A stretch of 64,000 nt of DNA from an uncultured Acidimicrobiales bacterium (GCA_937922805.1 CALAJV010000001.1:179734-243733), one strand, 5' to 3'; positions 8,556 through 55,168 are shown, counted from the first letter of the stretch. Program-made: numbers and translations. Notes: generated from the letters alone by a model not told the origin.

Positions 8556-8654
8556 CGCTACCGACCCGTCGTCGACTAACCTGCACATCTAGCGTTCCCC
8601 CAGTCGCCCCAGCGGTTGCTTTTTGCACCGTCATTCAACACCGGATCCCTTACG

Positions 8655-10175
8655 TTGAGCCACAATATTTACGAGCTGTTTGCGGAGAAATTCGCCGACG
8701 CTTTGACGTCACCCTTTCTTTCAGTACCTAACGGCCTTACCTACACCTACGGCCAGGTCGATCGGCGAAGCGCGGCACTTGCCACTGTCTTAGCCGAAGG
8801 CGGAGCGAAGCCAGGCGACCGGGTAGTCGTCCAAGTAGAAAAATCGGCTGACGCTGTGGCGCTCTACCTAGCGTGTCTCCGCGGCGGATTTGTCTATGTT
8901 CCGTTAAACACCGCTTACACACCAGAAGAGGTTGGGTTTTTCCTCGGTGATGCCGACCCGGCGATCTTCGTATACAAACCCAATCGGACAGAGAAGCTTC
9001 AACCCGTCGCCGACATCGCCGGCGTTGCGAAAACCTATTCGTTAGGAGTCGAGAGCACCGGCTCACTAGCGGAAGCGGCGGCAAACGTTACTCCCGTGGG
9101 CGCAGTGATAGAACGTGAGCCTGACGACGTGGCGTGCTTGCTTTACACCTCAGGCACAACCGGCCGCTCAAAGGGAGCGATGATTACCCATCGCAACATT
9201 GCCAGCAACGCGAAGGCGTTGCACGCCATTTGGCGATTTCGGCCGGGCGATATTTTGCTCCACGTCCTACCCATCTTTCATGTCCATGGCCTTTTCGTTG
9301 CCCTGCACTGCGCCATGCTAAACGCGTCAGAAGTGATCTTTTGCCCGAAGTTCGAAGCCGAAACGACTCGGGTCAACCTACAAAAAGCCACAGTCATGAT
9401 GGGCGTGCCAACCCACTATTCCCGGCTACTCAACGATCCCGACTTTGGCTCCCGGGACTGCCAGACCATCCGCCTGTTTACCAGCGGATCAGCCCCTATG
9501 ACGGAACACCTTTTCCACCAGTTCACCGAACGAACCGGCCACAGCATCTGCGAACGATACGGAATGACCGAGTGTGGCATTATCACCTCCAATCCCCCTG
9601 AAGGCCGAAGAATCGCCGGAACAGTCGGATACGCGTTGCCGGATATGGATGTCCGCATCGCCGATGACCAAGACAGCGAAGTAAGCGAAGGCACAATCGG
9701 CGAGGTCCAGGTCAAAGGACCGCACGTTTTCCCTGGATACTGGCAGCTCGAAGATAAGACCGCTGAAGCCTTCACCGCCGATGGCTACTTCCGAACCGAC
9801 GACATCGGGCTCAAGGTTGCCGACGGACGAATCACACTGGCCGGGCGGGCCAAAGACATGATCATCTCTGGCGGGTTCAACGTATACCCCAAAGAAGTCG
9901 AGCTCCTCCTCGATCAAATCGAAGGTGTTCACGAATCGGCAGTCGTTGGTCTACCCCACGCCGACTTTGGCGAAGGAGTAGCCGCTTTCATCGCCGCCGA
10001 CGATGGTATTGGGGAAGACGAGTTGCGCGAAGTACTCGAATCCAAACTGGCAAACTTCAAACAACCGAAGATCTACATCTTCGTTCCATCGTTGCCCCGC
10101 AACGCTATGGGCAAGGTTCAGAAATCTCAGCTAAGAGACGCCAACGCTGAGTTATTTGGCGGGCTTGAGTTGTAG
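8655..10175 (+). CDS. matB: Malonyl-CoA synthetase-like acyl-CoA synthetase
   Basis: YTSGTTGRSKGA, LPIFHVHGLFVA, MMGVPTHYSRLL, ERYGMTE and RNAMGKVQK, typical of MatB. Probable TTG start at 8655 (track gives 8616). Confidence 0.8.
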   Translation: MSHNIYELFAEKFADALTSPFLSVPNGLTYTYGQVDRRSAALATVLAEGGAKPGDRVVVQVEKSADAVALYLACLRGGFVYVPLNTAYTPEEVGFFLGDADPAIFVYKPNRTEKLQPVADIAGVAKTYSLGVESTGSLAEAAANVTPVGAVIEREPDDVACLLYTSGTTGRSKGAMITHRNIASNAKALHAIWRFRPGDILLHVLPIFHVHGLFVALHCAMLNASEVIFCPKFEAETTRVNLQKATVMMGVPTHYSRLLNDPDFGSRDCQTIRLFTSGSAPMTEHLFHQFTERTGHSICERYGMTECGIITSNPPEGRRIAGTVGYALPDMDVRIADDQDSEVSEGTIGEVQVKGPHVFPGYWQLEDKTAEAFTADGYFRTDDIGLKVADGRITLAGRAKDMIISGGFNVYPKEVELLLDQIEGVHESAVVGLPHADFGEGVAAFIAADDGIGEDELREVLESKLANFKQPKIYIFVPSLPRNAMGKVQKSQLRDANAELFGGLEL

Positions 10176-11396
10176 ATTCGCCGCTTCGGCGTTGCGACCA
10201 ATGGTCACCGTGAAGATCGAGCCCTTATCGAATTCAGAGTCAACGTCGATGGAGCCGCCGACCTGTTCCAGCGACCTTCTCGCCAAGGCTAGCCCAAGCC
10301 CAAGCCCAGGAACGTCCGAACTGCAACGAGTGTACGCCTCGAAAATGCGCTCTTGATTTTCGCTGCTGATGCCAATGCCATTGTCAGATACCGTCAGTAG
10401 CACCTTGTCATCAACCACCGCGTAGTTGATCCCGACAACTAAGTCTCGATTTGGCGAGCGATATCTGATTGCATTCGAGACCAAGTTGGATAACACCATC
10501 AAAATGTGAGCTGGATCACAGGAGATCTGGCCCATGAGGCCTATTTCCATCCTCCCATTCACCGACGAAAGCTCACCGGCGTATCGACTCAGACACTGAT
10601 GGACAATGTCACCAAGATCAACAACAACTGATCGCCGATACTGGGGTTCTGGTTTGCCCAGGGCCAAGATGTTCTCGATCTGGTCGTACAGAACCTGAGC
10701 TTCTTCGCTGATTTGCGCCAACAAACCAACTGTTTCAGAAACAGGCAAACCGTCGACACCAGATTTGAGTTTGACCTGCAGGTAGTCCGAGCACAACATG
10801 ATTGCTCGCAGAGGGTTTTTGACTTCATGGGCAGTGAACTCGGCGAAGAGATCCAGGTTTTCATTCTCAGACTTCAACTTCTCTGAATATCGCTGCAACT
10901 TGTCGCTGGCAATTTTGAGGCTCATACCGGTTGCGTGCTGGGTTCTATTTTCCTGTTTGTCGTCCAAGTGACGCTCGATAATGTCGATCGAGAATTGCAC
11001 TCGGGAGCGATCCGATTCTGACGCTGGCTCAGGTCCGTAAGCGGCGACGAAGCCAAGCGGGAGCCCGGTTGGCGCAATGATGGCACCGACAACGATACTG
11101 GCCGTTCCCGAAGGCATCACGGTGTTGAGCTGAGCTGGTATTTGATCGCCAGAAAGCACAACGGTTCGACCGGTGGCCGAGGTGGCGATAGAGAACGCCT
11201 CACATGTTTCAGCCTCTAGCTCTATGCCTTCGAGTTTGGGGTCGGTAGCGGTAACAGCCAGATGAGTGCCCTCAATCTGTAGGGCCATCAGAGCATTTGG
11301 AAGCCTGCTACTGGCAACCAGCTGTACCACAGCGTTATGAAGATCTAGGTTGCGAGGAATCGTCACAGTTGTACTATCGGTGAGAAATTCGAACAA
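10152..11396 (-). CDS. Cytoplasmic sensor histidine kinase with a possible degenerate GAF-like N-terminal domain
   Basis: H-box AHEVKNPL, N-box NLVSNAIRY, G1 DNGIGI, G2 GLGLGL; no obvious TM helix. Confidence 0.9.
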   Translation of the reverse strand: MFEFLTDSTTVTIPRNLDLHNAVVQLVASSRLPNALMALQIEGTHLAVTATDPKLEGIELEAETCEAFSIATSATGRTVVLSGDQIPAQLNTVMPSGTASIVVGAIIAPTGLPLGFVAAYGPEPASESDRSRVQFSIDIIERHLDDKQENRTQHATGMSLKIASDKLQRYSEKLKSENENLDLFAEFTAHEVKNPLRAIMLCSDYLQVKLKSGVDGLPVSETVGLLAQISEEAQVLYDQIENILALGKPEPQYRRSVVVDLGDIVHQCLSRYAGELSSVNGRMEIGLMGQISCDPAHILMVLSNLVSNAIRYRSPNRDLVVGINYAVVDDKVLLTVSDNGIGISSENQERIFEAYTRCSSDVPGLGLGLALARRSLEQVGGSIDVDSEFDKGSIFTVTIGRNAEAANLQLKPAK

Positions 11397-11513
11397 TTGA
11401 CCGCGAACAGTCGTGTGAACTACATCAGCGTCAAGATGAAAGTACGGACGTCGAGGAACTGAACAATCTTGATTGATGAGATGGACTGATGCCCGAGCCC
11501 TTACTACCCCTTT

Positions 11514-12026
11514 TTATGGCGTCGGCGAAAGCCCAAGCAAGCGCTCACCTAGTTGGTGGAATGCTCGCTCTACGCCCGCTCCCGACTTGGCGCTTGTTTC
11601 GACGATTTGCACGTCGGCAAGTTGTTCGATGCTGGAAATCGCTGTCGCCATTGCCTCTCGATCTACCGGTAAATCGATCTTGTTGACGACGGCGACTACC
11701 GGGACTGATGCGATCTGATCGCCAAGTCGTTCGCAAAGCTGTTCAGCGGTTGATGCTGTCTCCGGTCTTGTGCCATCGACTACCAATAAGTAGCCGCCAG
11801 CGCCATTCAAAAACGACGAGTTGATCTTCAACATCCCCTCTTCACCTTGAACATCCCAAATAAGCAAATTAAGCGTCTGATCTTCAATCGTGACCTTTTT
11901 CCGTTCGATCCGAACTCCAACGGTTGAGATGTAGTGCTCAGAGAAAACGTTTGAAACGAAATGGCGAACGAGACTTGTTTTGCCAACGCCAGCGGCCCCA
12001 ACGAGGCAGATCTTTTTGTGCATCAT
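11514..12026 (-). CDS. Rab/Ras-like small GTPase (prokaryotic Rup-type)
   Basis: G1 GAAGVGKT, switch I YISTVGV, G3 WDVQGEE, G4 NKID, G5 ETSAK; ~170 aa stand-alone. Probable start 12026 (track gives 12047). Confidence 0.9.
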   Translation of the reverse strand: MMHKKICLVGAAGVGKTSLVRHFVSNVFSEHYISTVGVRIERKKVTIEDQTLNLLIWDVQGEEGMLKINSSFLNGAGGYLLVVDGTRPETASTAEQLCERLGDQIASVPVVAVVNKIDLPVDREAMATAISSIEQLADVQIVETSAKSGAGVERAFHQLGERLLGLSPTP

Positions 12027-12037
12027 GTTCGAAGCCC

Positions 12038-12880
12038 CTAGACCCACAACCGAACGAGAGCGAACACTACTACTGCCACAACGGCCGCGACGGCGAGAAC
12101 CGCCAGAATCAACGTTCGCCTCGAGTTTTTCTTGTCGGCTTCGATTGCTAGGCTCTCCAACGATTGGCGCGCTGGTTCAAGTGTCAGCGGATCCCCTTCG
12201 AAGGCGTCAATTATCTCGCCGTGCTCGGAATGGACCCGCTCCAAAATTTCCTGCATTCGCACCCTTAGCGTCTCCGGAGGAAAGCCCCGAACAACTACCG
12301 CCAACATTGCCTGGGGCCCCCACTCAACAAGCACTGATACATCGCCGACCGAAAGTTCTCGCATTCCATCAAAGTCAGTGGCATTGAATGAGTCCTGAAC
12401 AAAAGAGCGAATCGCTTCCAGCATCCCGGCAACGACATCGCTGTTGGTTCCAGCTTCAGGTGAACGAGGAACGTGGAGCATTGGCAAACCAGAGAGTCGT
12501 TCGATCAGGAACACTTCATCCACGTCGAAACCCTTGTTCGATGACTGTGGGTTGAACATGTTGGCAATGATCATTCGCACCGCTTTGCCCATTATTGGGA
12601 AAAGGGCTTCGGCCAACTTGTCAGGATCGGTTCTCGACGATACGTGCACCGCTTCAATGACCTGAGGTCGCAACGCTTCATTCACCTCTGGCCCGGCAGC
12701 GTCGGCTCGCTCCAACACTGCCGGCAAATCGGCAGCAATGGTTTCTATTCGTTCGCTCTGGCGTTGCCACGAATTGACTATGGACTCAAGTTCACGGACG
12801 CGGGCCTCAAGCTCGGCGACCTCACTTTTGTCAGAGGCTCCGAGAAGATCGCGCAACTCCCCAACCGGGGACGGCGACAT
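12038..12880 (-). CDS. Coiled-coil plus longin/roadblock-like domain protein with a C-terminal membrane anchor
   Basis: VFLIERLSGLPML...SDVVAGMLEAIRSFVQDSF...LSVGDVSVLVEWGPQAMLAVVVRG pattern; ends KKNSRR followed by a ~20-aa hydrophobic helix. The fold call is an inference. Confidence 0.65.
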   Translation of the reverse strand: MSPSPVGELRDLLGASDKSEVAELEARVRELESIVNSWQRQSERIETIAADLPAVLERADAAGPEVNEALRPQVIEAVHVSSRTDPDKLAEALFPIMGKAVRMIIANMFNPQSSNKGFDVDEVFLIERLSGLPMLHVPRSPEAGTNSDVVAGMLEAIRSFVQDSFNATDFDGMRELSVGDVSVLVEWGPQAMLAVVVRGFPPETLRVRMQEILERVHSEHGEIIDAFEGDPLTLEPARQSLESLAIEADKKNSRRTLILAVLAVAAVVAVVVFALVRLWV

Positions 12881-12885
12881 GACTA

Positions 12886-13287
12886 CTAGCCTTTCCGAAT
12901 CTCGGTGGCTGACTTGGTTAGAACGTCAGCCATCACTTTCTTGTCTACCTTGTCAGCCTCCAACGACGCTAGCGAATCATCAGTCCGCTTAGCTAGCTGT
13001 TCAAGGCGATGGTTGTAGTCTTTTTCCAGAGCAGAAATTCGGTTGCCAAGCTCAGTCGCCATCCGAGTGGACATCTCTGTCACTGACGCTTCGAGTAGTG
13101 CCAGTTCGGAATCGAACTTCCTTGTTTGTTCACCAAAGAGAAGAGCTTGAATCTTGCCAAGGTCACCCTCAGCGAAGTTCGCCTCTGCCTCTTTAGTTGG
13201 TCGAGCTGTGGGTTCACCGGTTTTGCGACCGGTTGAACCAGATTTGGTAGAACCACTGAACTTTGCCATAAGGGCATTTCGGCCCAT
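12886..13287 (-). CDS. Small coiled-coil protein (GTPase-operon associated)
   Basis: DLGKIQALLFGEQ followed by a heptad-rich helix; 5 nt from the next gene. Confidence 0.7.
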   Translation of the reverse strand: MGRNALMAKFSGSTKSGSTGRKTGEPTARPTKEAEANFAEGDLGKIQALLFGEQTRKFDSELALLEASVTEMSTRMATELGNRISALEKDYNHRLEQLAKRTDDSLASLEADKVDKKVMADVLTKSATEIRKG

Positions 13288-13334
13288 TCGGTTCGATGAT
13301 TAGGCTTAATCTGCAATTAGTTTGCTTTGCCTGA

Positions 13335-14567
13335 TCATCCGTCGTCAGCTAGAACGAACTCGATTCGTCGATTTCGGGCCCGATTTTCAGCACTATCGTT
13401 GTCCACCAGGGGTGTTGATTCGCCCGCCCCTCGAGCCGTGATTCTTGACTCCTCGATCCCTTCTTCGATGAGACGCTGACGTACTGCGTTGGCCCGCTGC
13501 TCCGACAGGGCCAAATTCTCATCATCAGGCCCGATGTCATCGGTGTGTCCGACTAGTTCTATCGCCACTGTTGGCAGCGAATCTAGGAGCTCAGCAATTT
13601 CTTTCAGCACCGTATCGCTCTCGCCGTCTATCTCTGAACTTTCCGGCGCAAACAAAATCGGTTGCGCTTCAAGCTTGGTTGAGATCTCAGCTTCGACTTC
13701 AGTCGTAGTTACCTGCGCTTCCTCAACGGTGAGCGCCGTCAGGTCAGTAGTAACTAACGCTCCAAACCTCTCAACTACTTCAGCTTCAAGCCCGTTGGCC
13801 CGCTCATCGCCAGGAGCAGTCGAGCCAGCGACTCGCACAACCCCTTCTTCCCAGGTCAGACTTTCTTCAATGGACATTCCAGAGCTGTCAATCGATGAGA
13901 TCCCCCAGATCTCAACCGCAGCTGAGATCAAGTCATCAATCGAGTTCTGATCGGGGGCTGCGCCGACCAACGTTACCGCCCCATCAGGGGTAACGCTGAT
14001 TTCGATCTCTACCGGCGCCAGCGCTTGTTCACCCCGATTAATCGAATTTGCACGGGCCGACAACCCAAAATCATCGACGATGGTCTGCTGCAAATTCTCC
14101 GGTCGGACATCTCCAACCAGGGTGTTTCCAGCTACCGACACCAATCCGTCGGTAAGCGTGGTTGCCTCGTCGATTTCTAGCTCATCGACCACGTTCTCAT
14201 CGCCGTATTCTCGGGCGGTGGCTGATACCAACTGAGATCGAGCTGCCTCGTCGGGTACCGCTCCTCGTAGCGTCACGGTGTCGCCATCGACTTCAAGCCG
14301 AAGGTCAACCGGATTTCCGAGCTCGGTTTCGGTTACCGCCATGGCCACTGCTTCGCCGTCTTCGTTCGTCTCTCGCCCATCACACCCGCGCGCAAAAGCC
14401 GCAATTACTAGCGTCACGAAGCAAAGCAAAGCTAGATAACCCCAGCCAGTTGTGGTGCCATCTGCCTCTAAGTTCCGAAGCCTGCGTTGGCCACCAGCTG
14501 ACGAATCATCTTTCGTTGAGAACTCATTGTCTAGGTCGTGATCTTCGTCGACGTAGGAACCGGTCAT
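13335..14567 (-). CDS. Membrane-anchored BON + OmpA-like peptidoglycan-binding protein (ArfA/Rv0899-like architecture)
   Basis: N-terminal TM helix; BON-like VTLRGAVPDEAAR..VVDELEI units; C-terminal GHTD..N..LSEQRANAV...NRARNRRIEF. Confidence 0.85.
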   Translation of the reverse strand: MTGSYVDEDHDLDNEFSTKDDSSAGGQRRLRNLEADGTTTGWGYLALLCFVTLVIAAFARGCDGRETNEDGEAVAMAVTETELGNPVDLRLEVDGDTVTLRGAVPDEAARSQLVSATAREYGDENVVDELEIDEATTLTDGLVSVAGNTLVGDVRPENLQQTIVDDFGLSARANSINRGEQALAPVEIEISVTPDGAVTLVGAAPDQNSIDDLISAAVEIWGISSIDSSGMSIEESLTWEEGVVRVAGSTAPGDERANGLEAEVVERFGALVTTDLTALTVEEAQVTTTEVEAEISTKLEAQPILFAPESSEIDGESDTVLKEIAELLDSLPTVAIELVGHTDDIGPDDENLALSEQRANAVRQRLIEEGIEESRITARGAGESTPLVDNDSAENRARNRRIEFVLADDG

Positions 14568-22086: not shown

Positions 22087-25000
22087 TTGGTTTGGATCTG
22101 GGTTACTACCAAACCTTCCGCTGAAGTTGTCTTAGGATGGCCTTTTCGCGTCGTAGCGGCAGTGCTTCTCATTGGGGCATCTCTGATTACTCCAACACCG
22201 GCAACCGCTGACCTCCCGGGGGTCGACCCCGATGTGCACCCGACCTACCAGTGCGACGGCACGGCCTACCTAATGCTAAACGGCACCTATTCGACGGTAT
22301 CCCCTGACCCGGCCAACCCAGGCAGCTGGATCGCAACACCGGTCCCTGTGACCACCACTATCGGCAACTCTCTGGGTTATGACCCGGTTTCCAACTATGT
22401 CTACGGAACGGCTGGGAACAACGTAGAGATCTACGATGCCGCGGGTGGGCTTGTGTCGTCGGTTCCGTTACAGGCTCCTTGGCCAACCGGGGCATCGCTG
22501 TATTCTGGCACCGTCCTCGGGGACGGCACGTACATAGTCGGCTCGTGGGGGCGAGGGAATGGGACCGGATGGTACGGGGGGAATCGCTATAACCTGTGGA
22601 TTGCCGACCCTCAGACTGGCGCCATTACCCATATCGGGTCAACTCCACGGTCAGAGGCCGATTTTTCCTATAACCCGCTCGACGGGTATTTGTATCATGC
22701 TTCGGGCGGCTTCGTAACTCGATGGGATCCAATAACGGCGGCCGAAGTTCGTATCGATGTTCCAGGTTGGAGCGAAACTGGTTTTGGTGGCTCGTGGTTT
22801 GACGCCGCTGGCAACCTCTACCTCTACAAAAACGGGACCGGGGAAATTTGGCAAATCTCCGACCCGGGTGGTTCACCAACCGCTTCGCTCGTCGGCACCT
22901 CGAGCACCGCGGGAGGAGTAGATGCAACGTCGTGTGTCGGCGAGACTGATTTGTTGAAAGATGTAGTCGATAGCGCTGGAAATCCCGTCCCGCTAGCTGA
23001 TCGAACGTATCGTCCGGGTGAAATCGTCACCTACGCGTTCACTCTTATCAACAATGCGATACCAACCGGACCCCAACCGTTGACGGTCTGCGACACCTTC
23101 GGAGACGGACGAACCTTTACCGGCAACTTTTCCGACCCAACTGGCACGGCCACCTTCGATACTCCGCTAGGAGCTGGGGACACGTCGATGTGTATGACCG
23201 TTGACGTTCCTTCATCGCTGTGGACCGATCCCTACACCCCAGGAGGTTCACCAGTCACAGTAACGATCGACGTGCAGATCCCTCCGGATTTCGTTCCTGG
23301 CGAGTATGAAAATCAAGCGTGGCTAGACATAGACGGTGACCGGACGACCGCTGAGGTGTTATCAGATGATCCGGGCGACCTATCTGACGGAGAAGATCCG
23401 ACGACCGTTGAGGTAACCGGAAAACTCGAAGTGTGGAAAGAAGTATTCGGTCACCCGACTAACAACGACACTGATAACTTCCTCTTTACCGTTACCTGTA
23501 CAAACCCTGACGCCACAGTCCACGAGGTGCAGCCGACCAGTATCGTCGGCGCTGGCACGCAAACCCAATGGCCGGGAGCAAGCGTAAACAGTTTTACGCT
23601 CACCAATGGCGATCGTGTCGACATTTGGGATCTTCCAGCTGGGGCGTCCTGTGTTACCTCAGAAACAACTGGCCCCTACTACCCCACCAGTTGGTCTGAC
23701 GACTCCGGCAGCGTCGGCAACTCTGCGTCAACCACAAACATCATTGATCAGCCCATTGATAGCGAACAGGCAAGGCTGCGGAACTACACCTCGATTTTCA
23801 CGGTCACAAAAGCGACGAACGTCCCAGATAGCGCTTTCGATCTCGATCCGCTCGGCCAATTCGACGTACAAATCGAATGTGAAAGTCTTGATGGAACGAT
23901 CTACTCGCAGAACCACACCATCACGGTCGACACCGCGACTGGCCCGGCCTCTGCCACCGGCACAACAGTGGACCCAGCCCTTCCCTTGCTACCTCACGCG
24001 ACGCTGTGCTCTGTTACCGAGACGGTACCTACCGGGTGGGAGCTAACAGCTTCTAGCGGCACGACGTTCACCACGTCGTGGACCACAGCCCGAGACGTTT
24101 CACTTACCAATACGATGCAGGTCGCAGATCTGACAATCAACAAAACAATCGTTGGGCTACCCCCCGAAGTCGACCCGGCCGACTTCTCATTCGAAGTAAC
24201 CACTACGTGCAGCGGCGACTCATTCGCTTCCGAACCAGCCCCTATTGTTCAAACGTTGACTCCAGGTTCGCCAGCAGTCATCTCTGACTTGCCGGTAGGA
24301 GCAAATTGCACGGTAGTCGAAACTCCTGATCCGTCGTTCACCACCGCGTACTCCGTCCCCGGCGGTGTAGTCGACGTAGTCGCTGACGGTTCGACCCTTG
24401 ACATCACCAACACCACCGGCACCTTTATCATCGAGAAGTTCACGACGGTCGACTCAGATCACCCGATCGACCCCTACGGCACCTTCCTCTTCGACATCGA
24501 ATGTTCTCTAGGTGGAGCTGTTGTCTACACCGGTACCCACTCGCTCACCACCGACACAGCGACCAGTGACGGATCAAGCGGTGGCATCACCTACGACGAA
24601 CTTCCGCTACTACCACCAGGATCCGAATGCGTGATAACAGAGCAAGATCCTGGTTCTGAATGGACTCAACAACCAAGCAACGGTCCACTAACTATAGCTA
24701 TCGACCCGGCTGAGCCGAACACCGCTACATTCACCAATCAACGCAACGTGGCCGACGTAACAATCACCAAAGAAATCGTTGGAGCTCCCCCTGGTCTCGA
24801 TCTGTCGTCGGTTCAGTTCGACGTGTCGGTTGCATGCACCGGAGGCTTTGAGCCTGCTGGAGCCATCCAGACGTTTGACGGCACGATTACCGCGGCAACC
24901 GACTTTGTTGTTGAAGACCTGCCCGTCGGGACAACCTGTGCCGTAACCGAAGCGACCGACCCAGCCTACGTCTCGACCATGTCGCCCGAATCCGGCGAAA

Positions 25001-28000
25001 TCGTGCTCGATCAAGACGGCGAATCGGTGCGTTTAACTAACGCGACTTCATGGTTCGATGTCTCCAAGTCGACAACCGGTGCATCCACTCACCCCCTTGA
25101 CCTAGACGGCGACTTTAGCTTTAGCATTGTTTGCACCGGTCCAGATGGAACTGACCTGTACGACGAAACTGTCACCGTCACAACCGACGGTCAATCCGGT
25201 TCTGTGGGGCCAGCAACCGACCCGGCCCTTCCGTTACTGCCCCCAGGTTCTACCTGTGAGGTCGAAGAAACGGTTCCAGCCGGATGGTCGGTCACCTCCG
25301 CTAACCCGCAGTCGATAACCACAAGTAGCGATGGCGGAGCAGTGGCGTTTACTAACCAGCGCCAAGTAGCCGACCTCACCGTCACCAAAGTCATCGAAGG
25401 GTTACCGGTTGGCCTTGATCCTGAGTCGTTTGGGTTTACCGTTTCGGTCAGCTGCAGTCCAGGGTTCGACGCTAACCCGCTCGTTTTGACCGACCTGACA
25501 CTTACGACCGCTCAGCCGCTCGTCATCAGTGACCTTCCGGTCGGGGCAACCTGCACGGTAACCGAAACGGCCGACCCGAGGTTCGCAGCCACCTATGACC
25601 AAGCCGAAGTCGTAATCGACGTCGACGGTTCTGCGCTCACGATAACGAACTCAACCGGTACCTTCGAACTGGTAAAAGTGGCTCAATCCTCCGGGGTCAC
25701 AACTATCGACCTGGCTGAGACTTTTAGCTTCGATGTCGAGTGCGAACGCCCCGACGGAACGCAATACGCTGCCACCCATACGCTCACCACTGGAAGCGGC
25801 ACCGCAGGAACCGCAACCGCGTCTTCTCCGACTCCCAGTTTGCCAATTCTGCCGGCCGGAACAAGTTGCACCGCTACCGAGCAGACACCACCGGCCGGTT
25901 GGTCGCTCGCTAGTCCCGAACCGGCTACATTCACCATCAGCGCAAACCAAACACCTACTGCCGCATTTACCAATGACCGGCTTATCGGCGACCTGACAAT
26001 CAACAAGACCTTGGCTGGCGTCCCTGTCGACCAAGATCTGGGTGACGAGGAGTTCCTGGCTGACATCACGTGCGCCGGCGACTTTGTTTCCGACCCGTTG
26101 GTCCTCACCGACGTAGCGTTCACCGCTAACACACCAGCAATCATTCCTGACTTACCGGCCGGAGCCGTCTGCACCGTAACCGAAGACCCAGATTCAAGGT
26201 TCACAACGTCGTATTCGACCCCCGCTCCCGATGGTCTGTCGAGCGTCGTTACGGTTCAGGCCAACGGCTCTAACGTCGAGGTTGTCAACGCTACGGGCGA
26301 GATCATTGTCGCTAAGCAATCAGTGGTTGACCCTGATCATCCAATTGAATGGGTGGAAGAATTCTCCTACCGAATCGTGTGTATCACCAGCGGCGGAGCA
26401 ACCGCCTACGACAATCTGCACACCCTAACGACGTCAACTGCGACGACTACCGGCGGCTTCGGCTCGATTGGCTGGGGCGAACTGCCGCCGATCCCGGCTG
26501 GATCAACCTGTACCATCACCGAGGAAGACGAAGATCACTGGACCTTGGCTAGCCCCAACAGCCAACAGCTCTCGGTAGATCCGAACGTTGCAACCACTGC
26601 GTCGTTTGTCAACGAACGAAACGTCGTGGATCTTACGGTTCGCAAGGCAATCGAGGGCCTCCCCGCTGACCTGGAAGACACCGACTACTCGTTCACCGTG
26701 GATCTACGGTGCACCGGACCGTTCACTGAGGATCCGTACCTGATTACTGATCAGACCATAAGCGTTGGCTCAGACCTTGTGGTAGCTGACCTACCTACTG
26801 ATGCAACCTGCTCGGTTGCTGAACGACCAGAAACCGAATTTAGCTCGTCCTACAGCCCCGACGATGGAACTGGAACCGCGGCCGAACTCGTCCTCTCCGA
26901 TGCCCCAGCGGCATCCAACCTTGCCGAAATCACCAACTCGGTCGGGACCATTGGAATCTTCAAATCGACATCATTCGCCGGCTCCCAACCAATAGACATC
27001 GTCGAAACATTCTCGTTCACCGTCGTTTGCGATAACGGCCTCAATTCGACCCACTCCGTAACTACCGATGGTGTTGCACCAGAAGCTGGGACCGGCTCAA
27101 CCGTCGTGCCACCGTTACCGCTCCTCCCAGCCGGGACCGAGTGCACTGTGTCCGAACTGTCACCGCCAACCGGCTGGACCCTTGACTCGCCTGCTTCGGT
27201 GCAGCTAACGGTTACCACCACCGGCGAGCAAGTCGCCAACTTTGCCAACGTCCGAAATACGGCCAACCTGACTGTCACCAAAACTATCTTCGGCACACCT
27301 AACGGCACCGACCTCAACGATGACGAGTTCATTGTTGATGTCACCTGCACCGGGGACTTCACCGCTAGCCCGTTAGTTGTCGCCGATCAGGTTGTCACGG
27401 TCAACACACCATTGGTGATCGCTGACCTTCCAACCGGAGCAACGTGTTCAGTCGTTGAAGATCCGGACACTCGTTTCGTTACCAGATACAGCGCCACCTC
27501 AGTAGAGATCGACGATGACGGAGCCGATCTTGGTGTGATCAACCTTGGTGGCGAGCTGCTGGTTGAAAAGACCACCACCTTTGATTCGGCTCACCCGCTA
27601 GACCCAACAGCAACGTTCGAGTTCACTATCGTCTGCAGCAATGTTGAAGGGACCGAGATCTACAACGAGGTTCACCAACTGGACGCTGTTATCACCTCAC
27701 CAACAACCGGGTTCGCTTCCGTCAGCTACAACCAGATTCCACTTCTCCCCAACGGTGCCACCTGCACGGTAACCGAATCTTCGATTCCGACTGGCTGGGT
27801 CTTGACCACCCCGAACGATGTAGTGGTAAGCATCGATTCAGCCGCTCCTGCTACCGCGTCGTTTACCAACGAACGACAAACCGGAGAGCTCGTCATCACT
27901 AAAGAACTACTTGGACTACCAGAAGGCGTAGACCTATCGACCGCCGAGTTTGACGTGACTGTGAGTTGCTCTGGTGACTTCGTTACCGACGCTCCAGACA

Positions 28001-30423
28001 GCGCCTACGAAATTGTTGGCACCGTCTCTGCCGCTACCGATATGGTTATCACCGGGCTGCCTTCCGGTGCTGTTTGCACGGTCGTGGAAGATCCTGGTTA
28101 TGCCTTTGCCGTGACGGCCACCCCAGCGAACGGTGAAGTAACGATCCTGGCCGACGAACAGGTTGGCGTCGACCTTGTCAACCGGACCGGCGAGTTAATG
28201 ATCTCAAAAGCGACCGAGGCCCCAAGCACTCACCCCGTCGATCCGACCGGAGTGTTCGAGTTCCGAATCGAATGTGATAACGGCCCGATCCCGTACGCCG
28301 AGAACGTCTCAATCAACGTTGACACACTCACCGCATCGGGAGCCTGGGGCGCTCTTCGCTATGACGACCTGCCATTACTCCCGAACGGTACGACCTGCGA
28401 CATCTCCGAAACCGGCGGCTCTGAAGGGTGGACGCTGACGTCAGATGAGACCGTAACTCTGGTCATAACTTCAGACGGTGTCCAAACTGCCTCATTTACT
28501 AATTCGAGAGACACCGCTGATCTCACTATCGAGAAGGTTCTTCGAGGGGTTCCGGCCGAGATCGATTTGGTGAACGAGCCATTCGAGGTAACCGTTACTT
28601 GTACCGGCGACTTCAGCACTGCTCAACCGGACCAACCATACGAGCTGGTCGTAACCGTTTCAGCTCAGCAAGGGGCGGTAATCAAAGATCTACCTACGCT
28701 GGCGGACTGCACCGTCGCCGAAACCGAAGACCCTCGATTTGTCGCATCGTATGAACAAGCCGGGCAACTAGATAGCGATGGCGAGACGGCTACTATTACC
28801 AATGAGACCGGGTCTTTTGCCATCATAAAACACGCCCGCGTTTCTTCATCCCACCCCGCCACCCCACAAGGCTCCTTCAACTTCGACATAGTCTGCGTCG
28901 GACCTGATGGAACCGAGTTGTTCAACGGCTCGACCACTATCACGACCTCATCGATTGATGACACCAGCGCGAGCGGAACGTGGGGCCCACCATCGACGCC
29001 GCTATTGCCGGCCGGATCGACGTGCGAGATGAGCGAGCAGAGCAATGTTGAATGGATGCTAGTCGACCGACTAGGCGGACCGCTACAAGGCGAAAACGGC
29101 TTTGCGATCGAGGTCGGCGTAAATCTCGTTGAAGTAGAGTTCACCAACGAACGCAACGTGGGCTCGCTCACAGTCACGAAGTCGCTCGCCGGACTCGACC
29201 AAAACCAGGCTGTCGAACTGGAAAACGAACTATTCGACGTGATCGTCGAGTGCTCGGGTCGCTTTGGTGTTGACGAGATCGGGGCCGAGCGTGTTTATCA
29301 GGTTCCAGGGCCGACCCAGATATCGGCTGCTACCGAACTGGTCATTCCCGGCCTCCCTGTCGGGGCCACCTGTCAAGTACGAGAAGTACTTGATCCCAGG
29401 TTTACACCGACCTACCTCACCTCAGCTACCGGGGCTACTGACGGTTCGGTCATCATCGCTGCCGATGGTGAGCCAGCTGAAGAACCAGGCGGAGAACTGG
29501 CGCCGGCTGGCGTACTAACTAACCACGTTCACGTCACCAACTCCACTGGGCATCTACTCCTCGTCAAAAACACATCGACGAATTCGGCGGTGCCAATCGA
29601 TCTCACCGGCGATTTCAATTTCGAAGTGCTGTGCGATAACGGTTACACCGGTATCCACGTCGTTTCGGTTGATGCCGTGGTTGACGGGGGCATGGCCGGA
29701 GGGCTAGCCGCTAACGAACTTGCCATGCTGCCGACCGGAACAGTCTGTGAGGTGACCGAAGTCGACCTTCCTCCAACTTGGGTTCTCCGGTCAGATCCAA
29801 CGGTGACAATAACGATCGGAAGCGAACCCGCCGTCGCCACCTTCGAGAACGAACGTTTGACGGGGTCGTTGGCGCTGTCAAAGCGAATTATTGACTGGCC
29901 CGAAAAGGCTGAGCCTGCAACCGATTCGTTCCCCGTCACCGTCCGATGCGAAGGATCGTTTGTTGACGGCGTATACGAGACCGAAGTACAGCTTGGCGAC
30001 GGCGAAAATGTCACGATCGATGGGTTGCCACTGGGAGCAAGCTGTTTCGTAGACGAGATCGTTAGTAGTGACTTGTGGGAACCGGCCTATGACCACAACG
30101 GGACTGCAATCGAGAGCCAAACGATCGTCGTCGAAGGCGGGCAGGCCTCAACTACTGATCTTGCCATTGTTAACTCCTACGTTGGACCTCCTTTGACCAC
30201 CGAGCCCGATCCCGATTCCCCTGATGATCCCGACCCCGATGGTGGTTCGGATCCTGACTCAGGAAACGGTTCGGGCAGCGACTCCGGCAACGACGAGCCT
30301 GACTTGGCCTTCACTGGGCCCGCTCATCTTCGTTCGTTGACAATGATCGCGTTGGGATTGGTCGCGGCAGGAATCGCCGGAGTCGGTTCAGCTCGACGAC
30401 GAGGAAATAGCCACCAGCAGTAG
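22087..30423 (+). CDS. Giant sortase-anchored surface adhesin (beta-propeller-like head, 21 DUF5979/CnaB-like repeats, LAFTG sorting signal)
   Basis: Signal peptide ..PATA-D; N-terminal GYDPVSNYVYG/YNPLDGYLY blades; tandem ~105-aa repeats; PD/GS-rich linker, LAFTG, TM helix, RRR tail. Confidence 0.9.
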   Translation: MVWIWVTTKPSAEVVLGWPFRVVAAVLLIGASLITPTPATADLPGVDPDVHPTYQCDGTAYLMLNGTYSTVSPDPANPGSWIATPVPVTTTIGNSLGYDPVSNYVYGTAGNNVEIYDAAGGLVSSVPLQAPWPTGASLYSGTVLGDGTYIVGSWGRGNGTGWYGGNRYNLWIADPQTGAITHIGSTPRSEADFSYNPLDGYLYHASGGFVTRWDPITAAEVRIDVPGWSETGFGGSWFDAAGNLYLYKNGTGEIWQISDPGGSPTASLVGTSSTAGGVDATSCVGETDLLKDVVDSAGNPVPLADRTYRPGEIVTYAFTLINNAIPTGPQPLTVCDTFGDGRTFTGNFSDPTGTATFDTPLGAGDTSMCMTVDVPSSLWTDPYTPGGSPVTVTIDVQIPPDFVPGEYENQAWLDIDGDRTTAEVLSDDPGDLSDGEDPTTVEVTGKLEVWKEVFGHPTNNDTDNFLFTVTCTNPDATVHEVQPTSIVGAGTQTQWPGASVNSFTLTNGDRVDIWDLPAGASCVTSETTGPYYPTSWSDDSGSVGNSASTTNIIDQPIDSEQARLRNYTSIFTVTKATNVPDSAFDLDPLGQFDVQIECESLDGTIYSQNHTITVDTATGPASATGTTVDPALPLLPHATLCSVTETVPTGWELTASSGTTFTTSWTTARDVSLTNTMQVADLTINKTIVGLPPEVDPADFSFEVTTTCSGDSFASEPAPIVQTLTPGSPAVISDLPVGANCTVVETPDPSFTTAYSVPGGVVDVVADGSTLDITNTTGTFIIEKFTTVDSDHPIDPYGTFLFDIECSLGGAVVYTGTHSLTTDTATSDGSSGGITYDELPLLPPGSECVITEQDPGSEWTQQPSNGPLTIAIDPAEPNTATFTNQRNVADVTITKEIVGAPPGLDLSSVQFDVSVACTGGFEPAGAIQTFDGTITAATDFVVEDLPVGTTCAVTEATDPAYVSTMSPESGEIVLDQDGESVRLTNATSWFDVSKSTTGASTHPLDLDGDFSFSIVCTGPDGTDLYDETVTVTTDGQSGSVGPATDPALPLLPPGSTCEVEETVPAGWSVTSANPQSITTSSDGGAVAFTNQRQVADLTVTKVIEGLPVGLDPESFGFTVSVSCSPGFDANPLVLTDLTLTTAQPLVISDLPVGATCTVTETADPRFAATYDQAEVVIDVDGSALTITNSTGTFELVKVAQSSGVTTIDLAETFSFDVECERPDGTQYAATHTLTTGSGTAGTATASSPTPSLPILPAGTSCTATEQTPPAGWSLASPEPATFTISANQTPTAAFTNDRLIGDLTINKTLAGVPVDQDLGDEEFLADITCAGDFVSDPLVLTDVAFTANTPAIIPDLPAGAVCTVTEDPDSRFTTSYSTPAPDGLSSVVTVQANGSNVEVVNATGEIIVAKQSVVDPDHPIEWVEEFSYRIVCITSGGATAYDNLHTLTTSTATTTGGFGSIGWGELPPIPAGSTCTITEEDEDHWTLASPNSQQLSVDPNVATTASFVNERNVVDLTVRKAIEGLPADLEDTDYSFTVDLRCTGPFTEDPYLITDQTISVGSDLVVADLPTDATCSVAERPETEFSSSYSPDDGTGTAAELVLSDAPAASNLAEITNSVGTIGIFKSTSFAGSQPIDIVETFSFTVVCDNGLNSTHSVTTDGVAPEAGTGSTVVPPLPLLPAGTECTVSELSPPTGWTLDSPASVQLTVTTTGEQVANFANVRNTANLTVTKTIFGTPNGTDLNDDEFIVDVTCTGDFTASPLVVADQVVTVNTPLVIADLPTGATCSVVEDPDTRFVTRYSATSVEIDDDGADLGVINLGGELLVEKTTTFDSAHPLDPTATFEFTIVCSNVEGTEIYNEVHQLDAVITSPTTGFASVSYNQIPLLPNGATCTVTESSIPTGWVLTTPNDVVVSIDSAAPATASFTNERQTGELVITKELLGLPEGVDLSTAEFDVTVSCSGDFVTDAPDSAYEIVGTVSAATDMVITGLPSGAVCTVVEDPGYAFAVTATPANGEVTILADEQVGVDLVNRTGELMISKATEAPSTHPVDPTGVFEFRIECDNGPIPYAENVSINVDTLTASGAWGALRYDDLPLLPNGTTCDISETGGSEGWTLTSDETVTLVITSDGVQTASFTNSRDTADLTIEKVLRGVPAEIDLVNEPFEVTVTCTGDFSTAQPDQPYELVVTVSAQQGAVIKDLPTLADCTVAETEDPRFVASYEQAGQLDSDGETATITNETGSFAIIKHARVSSSHPATPQGSFNFDIVCVGPDGTELFNGSTTITTSSIDDTSASGTWGPPSTPLLPAGSTCEMSEQSNVEWMLVDRLGGPLQGENGFAIEVGVNLVEVEFTNERNVGSLTVTKSLAGLDQNQAVELENELFDVIVECSGRFGVDEIGAERVYQVPGPTQISAATELVIPGLPVGATCQVREVLDPRFTPTYLTSATGATDGSVIIAADGEPAEEPGGELAPAGVLTNHVHVTNSTGHLLLVKNTSTNSAVPIDLTGDFNFEVLCDNGYTGIHVVSVDAVVDGGMAGGLAANELAMLPTGTVCEVTEVDLPPTWVLRSDPTVTITIGSEPAVATFENERLTGSLALSKRIIDWPEKAEPATDSFPVTVRCEGSFVDGVYETEVQLGDGENVTIDGLPLGASCFVDEIVSSDLWEPAYDHNGTAIESQTIVVEGGQASTTDLAIVNSYVGPPLTTEPDPDSPDDPDPDGGSDPDSGNGSGSDSGNDEPDLAFTGPAHLRSLTMIALGLVAAGIAGVGSARRRGNSHQQ
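23419..30180 (+). repeat. 21 degenerate protein-domain repeats alternating between A and B subtypes
   Basis: Each unit reads LT(I/V)xK...C...LPxGxxCxVxE...(F/I)TN. Counted by eye from the translation. Confidence 0.85.
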
Positions 30424-54058: not shown

Positions 54059-55168
54059 TTACAGCTCTCGGTATTCGATTCGACGATTACGGCGCTGAGC
54101 TTCTGGATCGTCGGCGTCGTTAGGCTCACGAAGACGTTCCTCGCCGTAGCCGAACGCCACCAATTCGTTCTCAACGCCCCGTTGTTCTAGCGCCTCTTTA
54201 ACGGCGTTGGCACGGCGTTCGCTCAGCTCCTTGTTCGACGCATCAGTTCCTCGTGAGTCGGTGTGTCCACCGACTTCAACCGAAATATCCGGATTGGCTT
54301 TCAACAAGTCAGCGGCCTCATCCAAGATAGATTCCGAAGCCGGTTCGATCAGAGCGCTACCGGAGCCGAACTCGATAGGTTCCAGTTCGTTCAAGCTGGC
54401 TTCGAGGTCGCTTTCAGCCGACAGTACGAAACCAGAGTTATCGATCTCGACTCCTTCGATGTCGTCGAAGCCTGATTCAACTCGCCCGAACAGTCCAGGA
54501 TCTGAGACCTGACCTTCAATTGTTACTTTGGTTGGGGCTTGCTTGTCGGCGTCGATGACCAACTGGTTATCTACTTGACCGTCCCGCGTCCAAATGGCAT
54601 TCGCTCGCTCAACAATGGCAGCTTCGGTAGCCTCGTCGGGCACCGTTCCGGTTAGCACTACGGTGCTTTGTCCGGCCGTTATTGTAGATTCAGCCTGAGG
54701 GCTGCTTACGATCGTAAGTTCGTCGATAACAGTGTCGACCTTTGGTTGTTCTCCGAGGAACTCCAAGACGGCCGCTCGGCTTGCCTCGTCAGGCACTTCA
54801 CCGGTTGCGGTCACCGTGTTGGTGTCGACCCCGGCCAACGCCACTGGCGCCAGCCCAGCTGCCGCCAGTCCAGCTCCAAAACCATCCAAATCGGGTTGAG
54901 TGAGCAGTTCGGCGACGGGAGCGGCTTCAGCTTCCTCGACCGGCTCTTCTTCTTCGACTACTTCTGCCGCTGCTTCCGCTGGCGTGGTTTCGACAGTTTG
55001 CCGGTTGGCGATGGACGGCCAAACGATGGTGATTGCCAAAATTGCTATGCCTACCGCAATCGCAAGTAAGGCTGGGAGCTCGTCAGGAGTCTCGTCAGCG
55101 AGAGCAACGCCTCTCGACTTCTGTGCTGATGCGGCTTCTTCTACTTGATCTTCGGTCACCTCGGCCAT
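54059..55168 (-). CDS. Second membrane-anchored BON + OmpA-like protein
   Basis: TM helix; ATGEVPDEA / LTGTVPDEA BON-like units; GHTDSRG..N..LSERRANAV..RNRRIE. Confidence 0.85.
   Translation of the reverse strand: MAEVTEDQVEEAASAQKSRGVALADETPDELPALLAIAVGIAILAITIVWPSIANRQTVETTPAEAAAEVVEEEEPVEEAEAAPVAELLTQPDLDGFGAGLAAAGLAPVALAGVDTNTVTATGEVPDEASRAAVLEFLGEQPKVDTVIDELTIVSSPQAESTITAGQSTVVLTGTVPDEATEAAIVERANAIWTRDGQVDNQLVIDADKQAPTKVTIEGQVSDPGLFGRVESGFDDIEGVEIDNSGFVLSAESDLEASLNELEPIEFGSGSALIEPASESILDEAADLLKANPDISVEVGGHTDSRGTDASNKELSERRANAVKEALEQRGVENELVAFGYGEERLREPNDADDPEAQRRNRRIEYREL

What the first reader, a model, noticed from the sequence alone, without database searches (positions are those of the whole stretch)
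10152..14567. Candidate bacterial Rab-like GTPase signalling system: BON/OmpA anchor, coiled coil, membrane longin-like protein, GTPase and histidine kinase
Seen: five co-oriented minus-strand genes, the first four separated by only 47, 5 and ~11 nt. They encode a TM+BON+OmpA peptidoglycan-binding protein, a 133-aa coiled-coil protein, a 280-aa coiled-coil + alpha/beta protein with a C-terminal TM anchor, a stand-alone small GTPase with all five G motifs and a Rab-like YxxTVGV switch I, and a soluble histidine kinase with no cognate response regulator nearby. Established: stand-alone prokaryotic Ras-superfamily GTPases other than MglA (the Rup type) have no well-defined function and have been noted next to signalling genes; MglA is controlled by the roadblock protein MglB, and several eukaryotic Rab GEFs use longin domains. 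Inference: this is an envelope-to-cytoplasm switch in which the OmpA/BON protein and the TM protein position or regulate the GTPase, which may feed into the kinase. I know of no functional characterisation of such a module in Actinobacteria.
Basis: partly seen in the sequence, partly recalled or inferred. Interest (0 to 1): 0.88.

Follow-up and report, generated by a model that had tools for sequence, protein, structure and literature searches.

The report
Actinobacterial variant of Rup GTPase module
Four of the five genes are a wall-anchor-free actinobacterial version of a bacterial Rab-like GTPase gene cluster that was catalogued by computer in 2014. Its membrane protein is predicted to fold like the longin domains that control Rab GTPases in eukaryotes, and the fifth (OmpA) gene is most likely just a neighbour.

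Summary
The five genes, strands and gaps are real. The coiled-coil gene, membrane gene, GTPase and kinase match the Group 1 Rup neighbourhood of Wuichet and Sogaard-Andersen (DUFY>DUFX>Rup plus an output). This scan has already reported that module, and its longin fold, on other genomes.

The membrane protein's core models as a longin domain (VAMP7 Z 13.3, MglB 8.7). A predicted complex with the GTPase gets weak support only (0.44 vs 0.01).

The BON/OmpA gene is most likely not part of it. It has a homologue in 81 of 87 family genomes, whereas the module is in 9 of 87, and it neighbours none of 19 other Acidimicrobiales copies.

What differs here:
- no OmpA on DUFX, and about 35 residues missing before the longin;
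- the glutamine-bearing output domain is replaced by a GAF kinase, which is convergent in 18 of 18 relatives and co-oriented only here;
- a NarL-type regulator sits beside 15 of 19 relatives but was not found in this genome.

Verdict: new variant of a known, untested system.

The parts
12886..13287 (-). DUFY: 133-aa cytoplasmic helical/coiled-coil partner of Group 1 Rup systems
   Evidence: No TM. Homologues in 19 of 19 Acidimicrobiales and 76 of 77 other DUFX loci (the profile was partly built from these loci). Hits the matching genes of named Mesorhizobium and Nostoc loci at E 3.5e-5 and 4e-4.
12038..12880 (-). DUFX: 280-aa tail-anchored membrane protein (helical stalk, longin domain, C-terminal TM), without OmpA
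   Evidence: AF2 pLDDT 86.9. Family of 5,487 representatives at E<=1e-3. Homologues in Mesorhizobium and Nostoc are annotated 'OmpA family protein' and precede a 'Rab family GTPase'.
12131..12526 (-). [quoted passage not shown]
   Evidence: DSSP order. VIA-align best hit VAMP7 longin Z 13.3, rmsd 2.4, 119 aligned; MglB Z 8.7, rmsd 3.3, 107 aligned. Beta1 and alpha1 are the most conserved elements.
12044..12109 (-). C-terminal transmembrane helix of DUFX (residues about 258-279); the protein ends about one residue later
   Evidence: Hydropathy 3.3 over 19 residues; sequence.
11514..12026 (-). Group 1 Rup small GTPase (ATG start; an in-frame GTG lies at 12047). G3 is DVQG-E, so there is no catalytic Gln; no C-terminal Cys
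   Evidence: Pfam Ras 1e-29; Rab1 best PDB hit. After DxxG: Glu in 60 and Gln in 10 of 91 homologues. Found at E<1e-39 in the same 10 of 88 family genomes as DUFX.
10152..11396 (-). Soluble GAF-helix-HisKA-HATPase histidine kinase (His190), of the kinase family linked to Acidimicrobiales Rup modules; a GTG start at 11366 is possible
   Evidence: Pfam; AF2. Phytochrome GAF match Z 13.2, rmsd 3.3, 131 aligned; Atlas GAF score 0.96; tree. Its 3' end overlaps the opposite-strand gene at 8616-10175 by 24 nt.
13335..14567 (-). TM-BON-OmpA protein: a conserved chromosomal backbone gene next to the module, most likely not a component
   Evidence: Homologue at E<=1e-30 in 81 of 87 family and 24 of 24 genus genomes. 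It follows the ferredoxin gene (PLP-enzyme gene between in 3) in all 14 genus loci fetched. Adjacent to 0 of 19 other Acidimicrobiales Rup loci.

Best explanation
These genes are an OmpA-less Group 1 Rup module in which a tail-anchored membrane protein with a predicted longin domain likely docks and activates a Rab-like GTPase, which would then switch a soluble GAF histidine kinase.

Shown: gene content, homology to DUFY, DUFX and Rup, co-occurrence of DUFX and Rup, and linkage of the kinase. Predicted: the longin and GAF folds, and DUFX-Rup contact (weak). Inferred: DUFX dimerises through its longin; the conserved alpha1 face (G152, M153, A156, F160) binds Rup and favours nucleotide exchange, as in Mon1-Ccz1 and TRAPP; DUFY joins the DUFX helical stalk as a scaffold; Rup, lacking the G3 Gln, stays GTP-bound until a partner helps hydrolysis; Rup-GTP binds the kinase's GAF/helix region and changes its autophosphorylation.

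In most relatives the phosphate would go to the adjacent NarL-type regulator; in this genome the acceptor is unknown. The BON/OmpA gene is a backbone neighbour.
For: Published neighbourhood DUFY>DUFX(:OmpA)>Rup plus kinase or cyclase, with Rup lacking the G3 Gln; same order in named Mesorhizobium and Nostoc loci.
Rup within 800 nt of DUFX in 19 of 19 Acidimicrobiales and 72 of 77 other loci; both genes in the same 10 of 88 family genomes.
Longin topology, with longins filling the top 29 fold matches, GEF subunits among them (Ccz1 Z 10.9, TRAPP Z 10.8). Alpha1 is among the most conserved elements (0.82), and alpha1 is the GTPase-binding face in Mon1-Ccz1 and TRAPP (PMC5216073; PMC3747258).
Complex prediction of two DUFX(62-252) plus Rup: weak support, 0.44 against best control 0.01; runs agree in at least 85% of contacts, partner pLDDT 76-77.
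Kinase adjacent in 18 of 18 informative relatives; regulator in 15 of 19. Six same-genus genomes without the module keep a related kinase at this chromosomal slot but without the GAF domain, as expected if the GAF serves the module.
Against: No binding, nucleotide or kinase data turned up for any Rup system in my searches (one search says none in 2014; search). The complex score is in the range the tool calls more often wrong than right (18 of 157 solved pairs and both passing mismatches scored 0.60 or under), and like longin-GTPase complexes are solved, so the pass may be from memory. The longin/roadblock fold also serves GAPs (MglB) and non-GTPase roles, so 'GEF' is not shown. The Gln-bearing output domain of canonical systems was not found in this genome, so the Rup-kinase link cannot be carried over from the published model. 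Rup-kinase contact was not modelled. The kinase is convergent, hence on a separate transcript, in 18 of 18 relatives. The cognate regulator was not found in this genome (genome 94% complete).
Confidence: 0.45

Rival explanations
1. The longin dimer is an MglB-like GAP platform that turns Rup off, making up for the missing G3 Gln, rather than an exchange factor.
For: MglB and roadblocks share the fold and binding face (Z 8.7). Rup lacks the catalytic Gln, and this variant also lacks the output domain proposed to supply it, so something else must drive hydrolysis.
Against: Topology and scores favour longins over roadblocks (Z 13.3 vs 8.7-9.4). No invariant Gln or Arg lies in the longin domain; invariant R102 is in the helix before it.
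Confidence: 0.17
2. The flow runs the other way, as proposed for the actinobacterial conservon: the GAF kinase senses a small molecule and acts on Rup, which is the output at the membrane, while the NarL-type regulator is a parallel output.
For: GAF is a typical ligand-sensing fold (established knowledge; fold). Wuichet proposes the GTPase as output for conservons. This genome and its two closest family relatives keep kinase and Rup, but the regulator was not found in them.
Against: Canonical Group 1 Rup systems swap kinases and cyclases behind one shared N-terminal domain, which makes them outputs. A regulator is adjacent in 15 of 19 relatives.
Confidence: 0.17
3. One reading: the upstream BON/OmpA protein replaces in trans the OmpA domain that canonical DUFX carries, giving a five-part wall-to-cytoplasm switch.
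For: OmpA is fused to DUFX in 59 of 77 non-actinobacterial loci. Here an OmpA gene lies 47 nt upstream on the same strand.
Against: 0 of 19 other Acidimicrobiales loci have it adjacent (one has an unrelated OmpA 5.2 kb from DUFX). The gene is in 24 of 24 same-genus genomes that lack DUFX and keeps its own neighbours. The genome has 14 OmpA-like ORFs. DUFX has essentially no outside portion to contact it.
Confidence: 0.08
4. This copy is a decaying relic: regulator lost, kinase flipped, module on its way out as in the rest of the genus.
For: DUFX in 0 of 24 same-genus genomes; regulator not found; kinase orientation unique; sensor-less related kinases in six congeners.
Against: All frames are open, G1-G5 and the kinase His/N/G boxes are intact. 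Full-length DUFX homologues at 89, 75 and 74% identity exist in other samples.
Confidence: 0.1

Closest known systems
Group 1 Rup GTPase neighbourhood (Wuichet and Sogaard-Andersen, Genome Biol Evol 7:57, PMC4316618; read: abstract, sections 12 and 16-19, the 27 Group 1 rows of Table S2)
   Same: Order DUFY>DUFX>Rup; coiled-coil partner; DUFX with TM; Rup without the G3 Gln and without a neighbouring MglB; a linked signalling output.
   Different: Actinomycetota are not among the 27 listed members. DUFX has no OmpA (also true of the listed Bacteroidetes and Chloroflexi) and is about 35 residues shorter before the longin (19-26 vs 58 residues). The output is a GAF kinase without the invariant-Gln domain, usually convergent, and usually with a NarL-type regulator. 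The paper left DUFX's fold unassigned.
Eukaryotic longin-dimer Rab GEFs: Mon1-Ccz1 and TRAPP Bet5/Trs23 (PMC5216073 and PMC3747258, passages read)
   Same: Predicted longin fold (Z 10.8-10.9 to these subunits), conserved alpha1 face with small residues four apart, Rab-like partner.
   Different: One gene, so at most a homodimer. Own TM anchor and N-terminal helical stalk; 5-14% identity; GTPase without prenylation cysteines; GEF activity untested.
MglA-MglB and the actinobacterial conservon (CvnA-D), as described in PMC4316618 section 18
   Same: Small GTPase plus profilin-like regulator plus histidine kinase in an actinobacterium.
   Different: The GTPase is Rup/Rab-like, not MglA; the regulator has longin, not roadblock, order and is membrane-anchored; the kinase is soluble. 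The genome's four Robl_LC7 matches are on other contigs.
Asgard archaeal longin proteins (PMC10933270 and PMC4917890, passages read)
   Same: Prokaryotic longin fold in cells with Rab-like GTPases; Lokiarchaeal longin 8yqg matches at Z 10.3. Nearest Atlas clusters are Asgard longin/roadblock proteins (0.76-0.80, a lead only).
   Different: In the Asgard isolate MK-D1, GTPase genes are generally not in operons with longins, so pairs cannot be read from the genome. Here the pair is fixed by gene order across many bacterial phyla.

Membership tests
Group 1 Rup system | Stand-alone Ras-like GTPase with G1-G5 resembling eukaryotic Rab/Ras | tested here: met
   Motifs in the sequence; Pfam Ras 1e-29; Rab1 top PDB hits; E 5e-41 and 1e-26 to the Mesorhizobium and Nostoc GTPases.
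Group 1 Rup system | No catalytic Gln after G3 DxxG | tested here: met
   DVQG-E69; Glu in 60 and Gln in 10 of 91.
Group 1 Rup system | Not coupled to an MglB/Robl_LC7 gene | tested here: met
   All four PF03259 matches lie on contigs other than C1.
Group 1 Rup system | Adjacent coiled-coil DUFY and DUFX genes | tested here: met
   Homology was tested against same-genus loci of listed taxa (Mesorhizobium, Nostoc), not against the paper's own locus tags, which could not be fetched.
Group 1 Rup system | DUFX 'often' followed by TM and OmpA (optional in the paper) | tested here: inconclusive
   TM present; no OmpA on DUFX. Table S2 lists OmpA-less members too, so this does not exclude membership.
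Group 1 Rup system | Output protein with the conserved N-terminal region and invariant Gln | tested here: not met
   A profile from 32 canonical outputs (Gln in 31 of 32) scores the window's kinase at E 3.4, finds nothing in the genome at E<1, and aligns only to the linker helix (hhalign probability 23%, Gln not matched). The kinase has a GAF domain instead. Hence filed as a variant, not as a plain member.
Longin domain | [quoted passage not shown] | tested here: met
   Predicted model: E119-127, E133-138, H147-165, E175-178, E181-187, E191-198, H203-225, H231 onward; definition from PMC3747258. A prediction, not a solved structure.
Longin domain | Structural match to solved longins above roadblocks | tested here: met
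   VIA-align ranks 1-29 are longin-domain entries, best Z 13.3, rmsd 2.4, 119 aligned; first roadblock Z 9.4, MglB Z 8.7. Foldseek agrees more weakly and mixes in roadblocks.
Longin-dimer Rab GEF | Dimer binds the GTPase on the alpha1 face | tested here: inconclusive
   Weak support, 0.44 vs 0.01; no interface reported.
Longin-dimer Rab GEF | Accelerates nucleotide exchange | not testable with these tools
   Needs biochemistry.
MglA/MglB conservon | MglA-type GTPase coupled to a roadblock MglB gene | tested here: not met
   The GTPase has the G3 Asp and groups with Rup sequences; no Robl_LC7 match on this contig.

The most novel reading that the evidence does not exclude
Bacteria of many phyla carry a genuine longin domain, membrane-anchored and encoded next to its Rab-like GTPase, that works as a nucleotide-exchange platform like Mon1-Ccz1 or TRAPP. 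This stripped Acidimicrobiales form (no OmpA, no Gln domain) would be the minimal longin-Rab switch, rewired to a GAF kinase, and a bacterial counterpart of a regulator pair thought to be eukaryotic or Asgard.
Probability: 0.4. Interest if true: 0.78.

Novelty: new variant of a known kind. Interest (0 to 1): 0.42.

Why it matters
Group 1 Rup GTPases are described as very similar to eukaryotic Rab/Ran/Ras/Rho proteins, and I found no experimental study of one. Longin domains were stated in 2013 to be absent from prokaryotes and were later reported in Asgard archaea, where GTPase-longin pairs are hard to match. A gene-linked bacterial longin-Rab-like pair makes exchange or GAP activity directly testable with two small soluble proteins.

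This variant adds a natural dissection. OmpA, a 35-residue pre-longin segment and the Gln-bearing output domain are all missing, while DUFY, DUFX and Rup stay together, which points to those three as the core. The family-level longin point has already been noted repeatedly by this scan, so this locus adds the variant rather than the idea.

Tried and rejected
Searches that found nothing: single-protein locus searches in genomes and metagenomes (alignments then worked); no DUFX match in phages; no RNA holder listed; no earlier finding by sequence or place.

The promoter/terminator scan was at chance level (1 vs 2.9 and 8 vs 6.8), so co-transcription is untested. No repeat pair flanks the kinase to mark an inversion. 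The PDB sequence search with the DUFX alignment showed only OmpA-part hits in the 60 of 82 rows displayed. No remnant of DUFY, DUFX, Rup, the GAF or the regulator in 14 same-genus slot loci.

A shared N-terminal motif between DUFY and DUFX aligns only weakly (hhalign probability 8%): kept as a lead, not as evidence.

Rejected: conservon membership; BON/OmpA as a component; homology of the kinase N-terminus to the canonical Gln domain.

Print searches: none linked longin to Rup. One 2026 preprint passage says profilin-longin-like domains often accompany GTPases across life (unpublished observations), and a review table marks 'Longin/Roadblock' present in bacteria (citing De Franceschi 2014, which I did not read). 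The library lacks most subscription papers; supplement file 1 of PMC4316618 could not be searched, and bioRxiv supplements are closed.
Full report
OBSERVATION. Pfam gives BON+OmpA, no family above cut-off for the two middle proteins, Ras for the GTPase and HisKA+HATPase for the kinase. The tight run extends upstream: a PLP-enzyme gene (TrpB2-like, name from recall; Pfam PALP) ends 10 nt before the OmpA gene, and a ferredoxin gene ends 32 nt before that. One same-family genome's locus (L105) has the same ORF layout as L027, titled an Acidimicrobiaceae bacterium, so I place the window in Acidimicrobiales by inference.

IT IS A PUBLISHED NEIGHBOURHOOD. Wuichet and Sogaard-Andersen (PMC4316618; I read the abstract, sections 12 and 16-19 and the 27 Group 1 rows of Table S2) describe Group 1 Rup GTPases with three conserved neighbours: a coiled-coil protein, a protein of unknown domain often followed by TM and OmpA, and a kinase or cyclase whose N-terminal region has an invariant Gln. 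Rup lacks the G3 Gln. The listed order is mostly DUFY>DUFX(:OmpA)>Rup; no actinobacterium is among the 27 rows. The window's DUFX finds Mesorhizobium and Nostoc plasmid loci with exactly that order, and the window's DUFY and Rup hit their counterparts there. After forming this reading I found eight earlier notes of this scan on other genomes that reach the same identification, several with the longin fold; they are not independent evidence.

THE UNKNOWN DOMAIN IS A PREDICTED LONGIN. [quoted passage not shown] Against 48,161 chains, ranks 1-29 are longin-domain entries (best VAMP7, Z 13.3, rmsd 2.4, 119 aligned; Ccz1 10.9; TRAPP 10.8; a Lokiarchaeal longin 10.3); the first roadblock scores 9.4 and MglB 8.7. 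Foldseek gives the same families with weak E-values and roadblocks mixed in. In 91 aligned homologues beta1 (0.83) and alpha1 (0.82) are the most conserved elements; G152, M153 and F160 are invariant. Alpha1 is the Ypt7-binding face of Mon1-Ccz1, where mutations at small residues four apart abolish exchange (PMC5216073 passages); the parallel to G152/A156 is my inference. Co-folding two DUFX(62-252) with Rup gave weak support: 0.44 against a best control of 0.01, runs agreeing in at least 85% of contacts, partner pLDDT 76-77. The tool notes that only 18 of 157 solved pairs, and both passing mismatches, scored 0.60 or under, that its counts hold only roughly for this job, and that similar solved complexes can give a pass from memory.

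DISTRIBUTION. DUFX was found in 12 of 401 genomes of the order and 10 of 88 of the family (both counts include this genome), in 0 of 24 same-genus genomes, and in none of 400 other genomes drawn from the phylum. Rup at E<1e-39 occurs in the same 10 family genomes; four weaker hits lie in long frames of other genomes. I counted 19 other Acidimicrobiales loci (dropped: L105 as a duplicate of L027; L001 and L082-L093 as short duplicates; L111-L114 as unassigned metagenome contigs) and 77 loci of other phyla. Acidimicrobiales: Rup adjacent 19 of 19, DUFY in the locus 19 of 19, OmpA fused 0, Gln domain 0, kinase adjacent 18 (one contig ends first), all 18 convergent, NarL-type regulator adjacent 15 (8 of the 15 built the profile). 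Others: Rup adjacent 72, OmpA fused 59, Gln domain 68 (32 built the profile). Between DUFX positions 102 and 125, 67 of 91 sequences have exactly 58 residues and 24 have 19-26: the window, 18 Acidimicrobiales genome loci, L111, and four others whose DUFX also gave no OmpA hit. A quick Rup tree of 46 of the 91 rows holds the 20 Acidimicrobiales-type sequences with one Granulosicoccus sequence (SH-aLRT 95), compatible with a single origin; the donor was not tested.

THE OmpA GENE IS BACKBONE. Its homologue (E<=1e-30) is in 81 of 87 other family genomes and 24 of 24 of the genus. In all 14 genus loci fetched it follows the ferredoxin gene (with the PLP-enzyme gene between in 3), and in 13 of 14 an acyl-CoA-ligase-like gene and a reductase gene lie beyond a variable slot. 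In this genome that slot holds DUFY-DUFX-Rup-kinase. The genome has 14 OmpA-like ORFs, and DUFX ends right after its TM helix.

THE KINASE. Its N-terminus is a GAF domain (phytochrome GAF Z 13.2, rmsd 3.3, 131 aligned; Atlas 0.96; Pfam GAF_2 in only 2 of 17 members), followed by a long helix into His190. It is not the canonical Gln domain: profile E 3.4, no hit in the genome at E<1, hhalign 23% over the helix only. In a 51-row tree it falls among Rup-linked Acidimicrobiales kinases, in a supported set of nine (97/90) with two of them and six short kinases (241-283 aa) that sit in the same slot in 6 of the 14 genus loci and lack the GAF. Holding the 20 Rup-linked kinases together against 12 other rows (the slot kinases and four kinases of this genome) is rejected (p-AU 0.003; quick LG+G4 tree; canonical kinases, L112 and most genome kinases left out). 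My inference: an ancestor had the module in this slot with a convergent kinase; congeners lost DUFY-DUFX-Rup and the GAF, and this lineage flipped the kinase. The tree is unrooted and has long branches, so the order of events is not shown. The regulator was not found at E<=1e-40 in this genome or in G170 and G454, whose kinases are closest, but is beside the module in the other 7 family carriers (its profile was built from such loci).

MECHANISM. Best model (0.45): tail-anchored DUFX dimer plus DUFY scaffold; longin alpha1 face docks Rup and promotes exchange; Rup-GTP tunes the GAF kinase; phosphate goes to a NarL-type regulator where present. Rivals: GAP platform (0.17), kinase upstream of Rup (0.17), relic (0.10), OmpA in trans (0.08). 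Identity as a Group 1 Rup-type module is far more secure (about 0.95) than any direction of signalling. The input signal is unknown; with no outside domain it would have to be membrane state, localisation or a GAF ligand (inference).

NOVELTY. The system is known computationally and, as far as my searches go, untested. I found no paper assigning a longin fold to DUFX, with the caveats that a 2026 preprint mentions profilin-longin-like domains beside GTPases across life, a review table lists Longin/Roadblock in bacteria, and subscription papers are not searched. Specific to this locus are the phylum, the loss of OmpA, the pre-longin segment and the Gln domain, and the GAF kinase/NarL output. 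It fails one defining feature of Group 1 Rup systems, so I file it as a new variant of a known kind. Interest 0.42.

Noticed in passing
L135-L140 (same-genus genomes G017, G021, G018, G023, G001, G016), slot downstream of the BON/OmpA gene: Short (241-283 aa) sensor-less histidine kinases related to the window's kinase persist in genomes without the Rup module; possible remnants or recruited regulators.
   Followed up: partly
window 10152-10175: The kinase's 3' end overlaps the opposite-strand AMP-binding enzyme gene (8616-10175) by 24 nt.
   Followed up: no
window 22087-30423 (+): 2,778-aa ORF with 14 matched DUF5979 stretches plus DUF7601 and DUF6923; looks like a large surface protein.
   Followed up: partly
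window 54059-55168 (-) and genome-wide: A second BON-OmpA gene in the window; the genome has 14 OmpA-like ORFs, which seems many for an actinobacterium.
   Followed up: partly
L003, L005, L097-L100, L102, L103, L109: In 9 of 19 Acidimicrobiales loci DUFY is displaced to the far side of the convergent kinase, and the response regulator takes its place before DUFX.
   Followed up: partly
L035, L038, L057 (Desulfomonile-like and related loci): Rup is inverted relative to DUFX, with a short stand-alone Gln-domain ORF beside it and a second Gln-domain gene upstream of DUFY.
   Followed up: no
L004 2415-3005, L024 1067-1567: A second Rup-like GTPase within the same locus.
   Followed up: no
L095 9065-10819: A REC-GGDEF-EAL gene lies divergently upstream of DUFY in a relative without the NarL regulator; possible alternative phosphate acceptor.
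   Followed up: partly
window 12886-13287 vs 12038-12880: DUFY (around residues 39-70) and the DUFX N-terminus share a weak L-x-x-I/L-R-x-L-L-x-G-like motif (hhalign probability 8%).
   Followed up: partly
G000 contigs C6, C10, C14, C18: Four Roadblock/LC7 (MglB-like) genes elsewhere in the genome.
   Followed up: no
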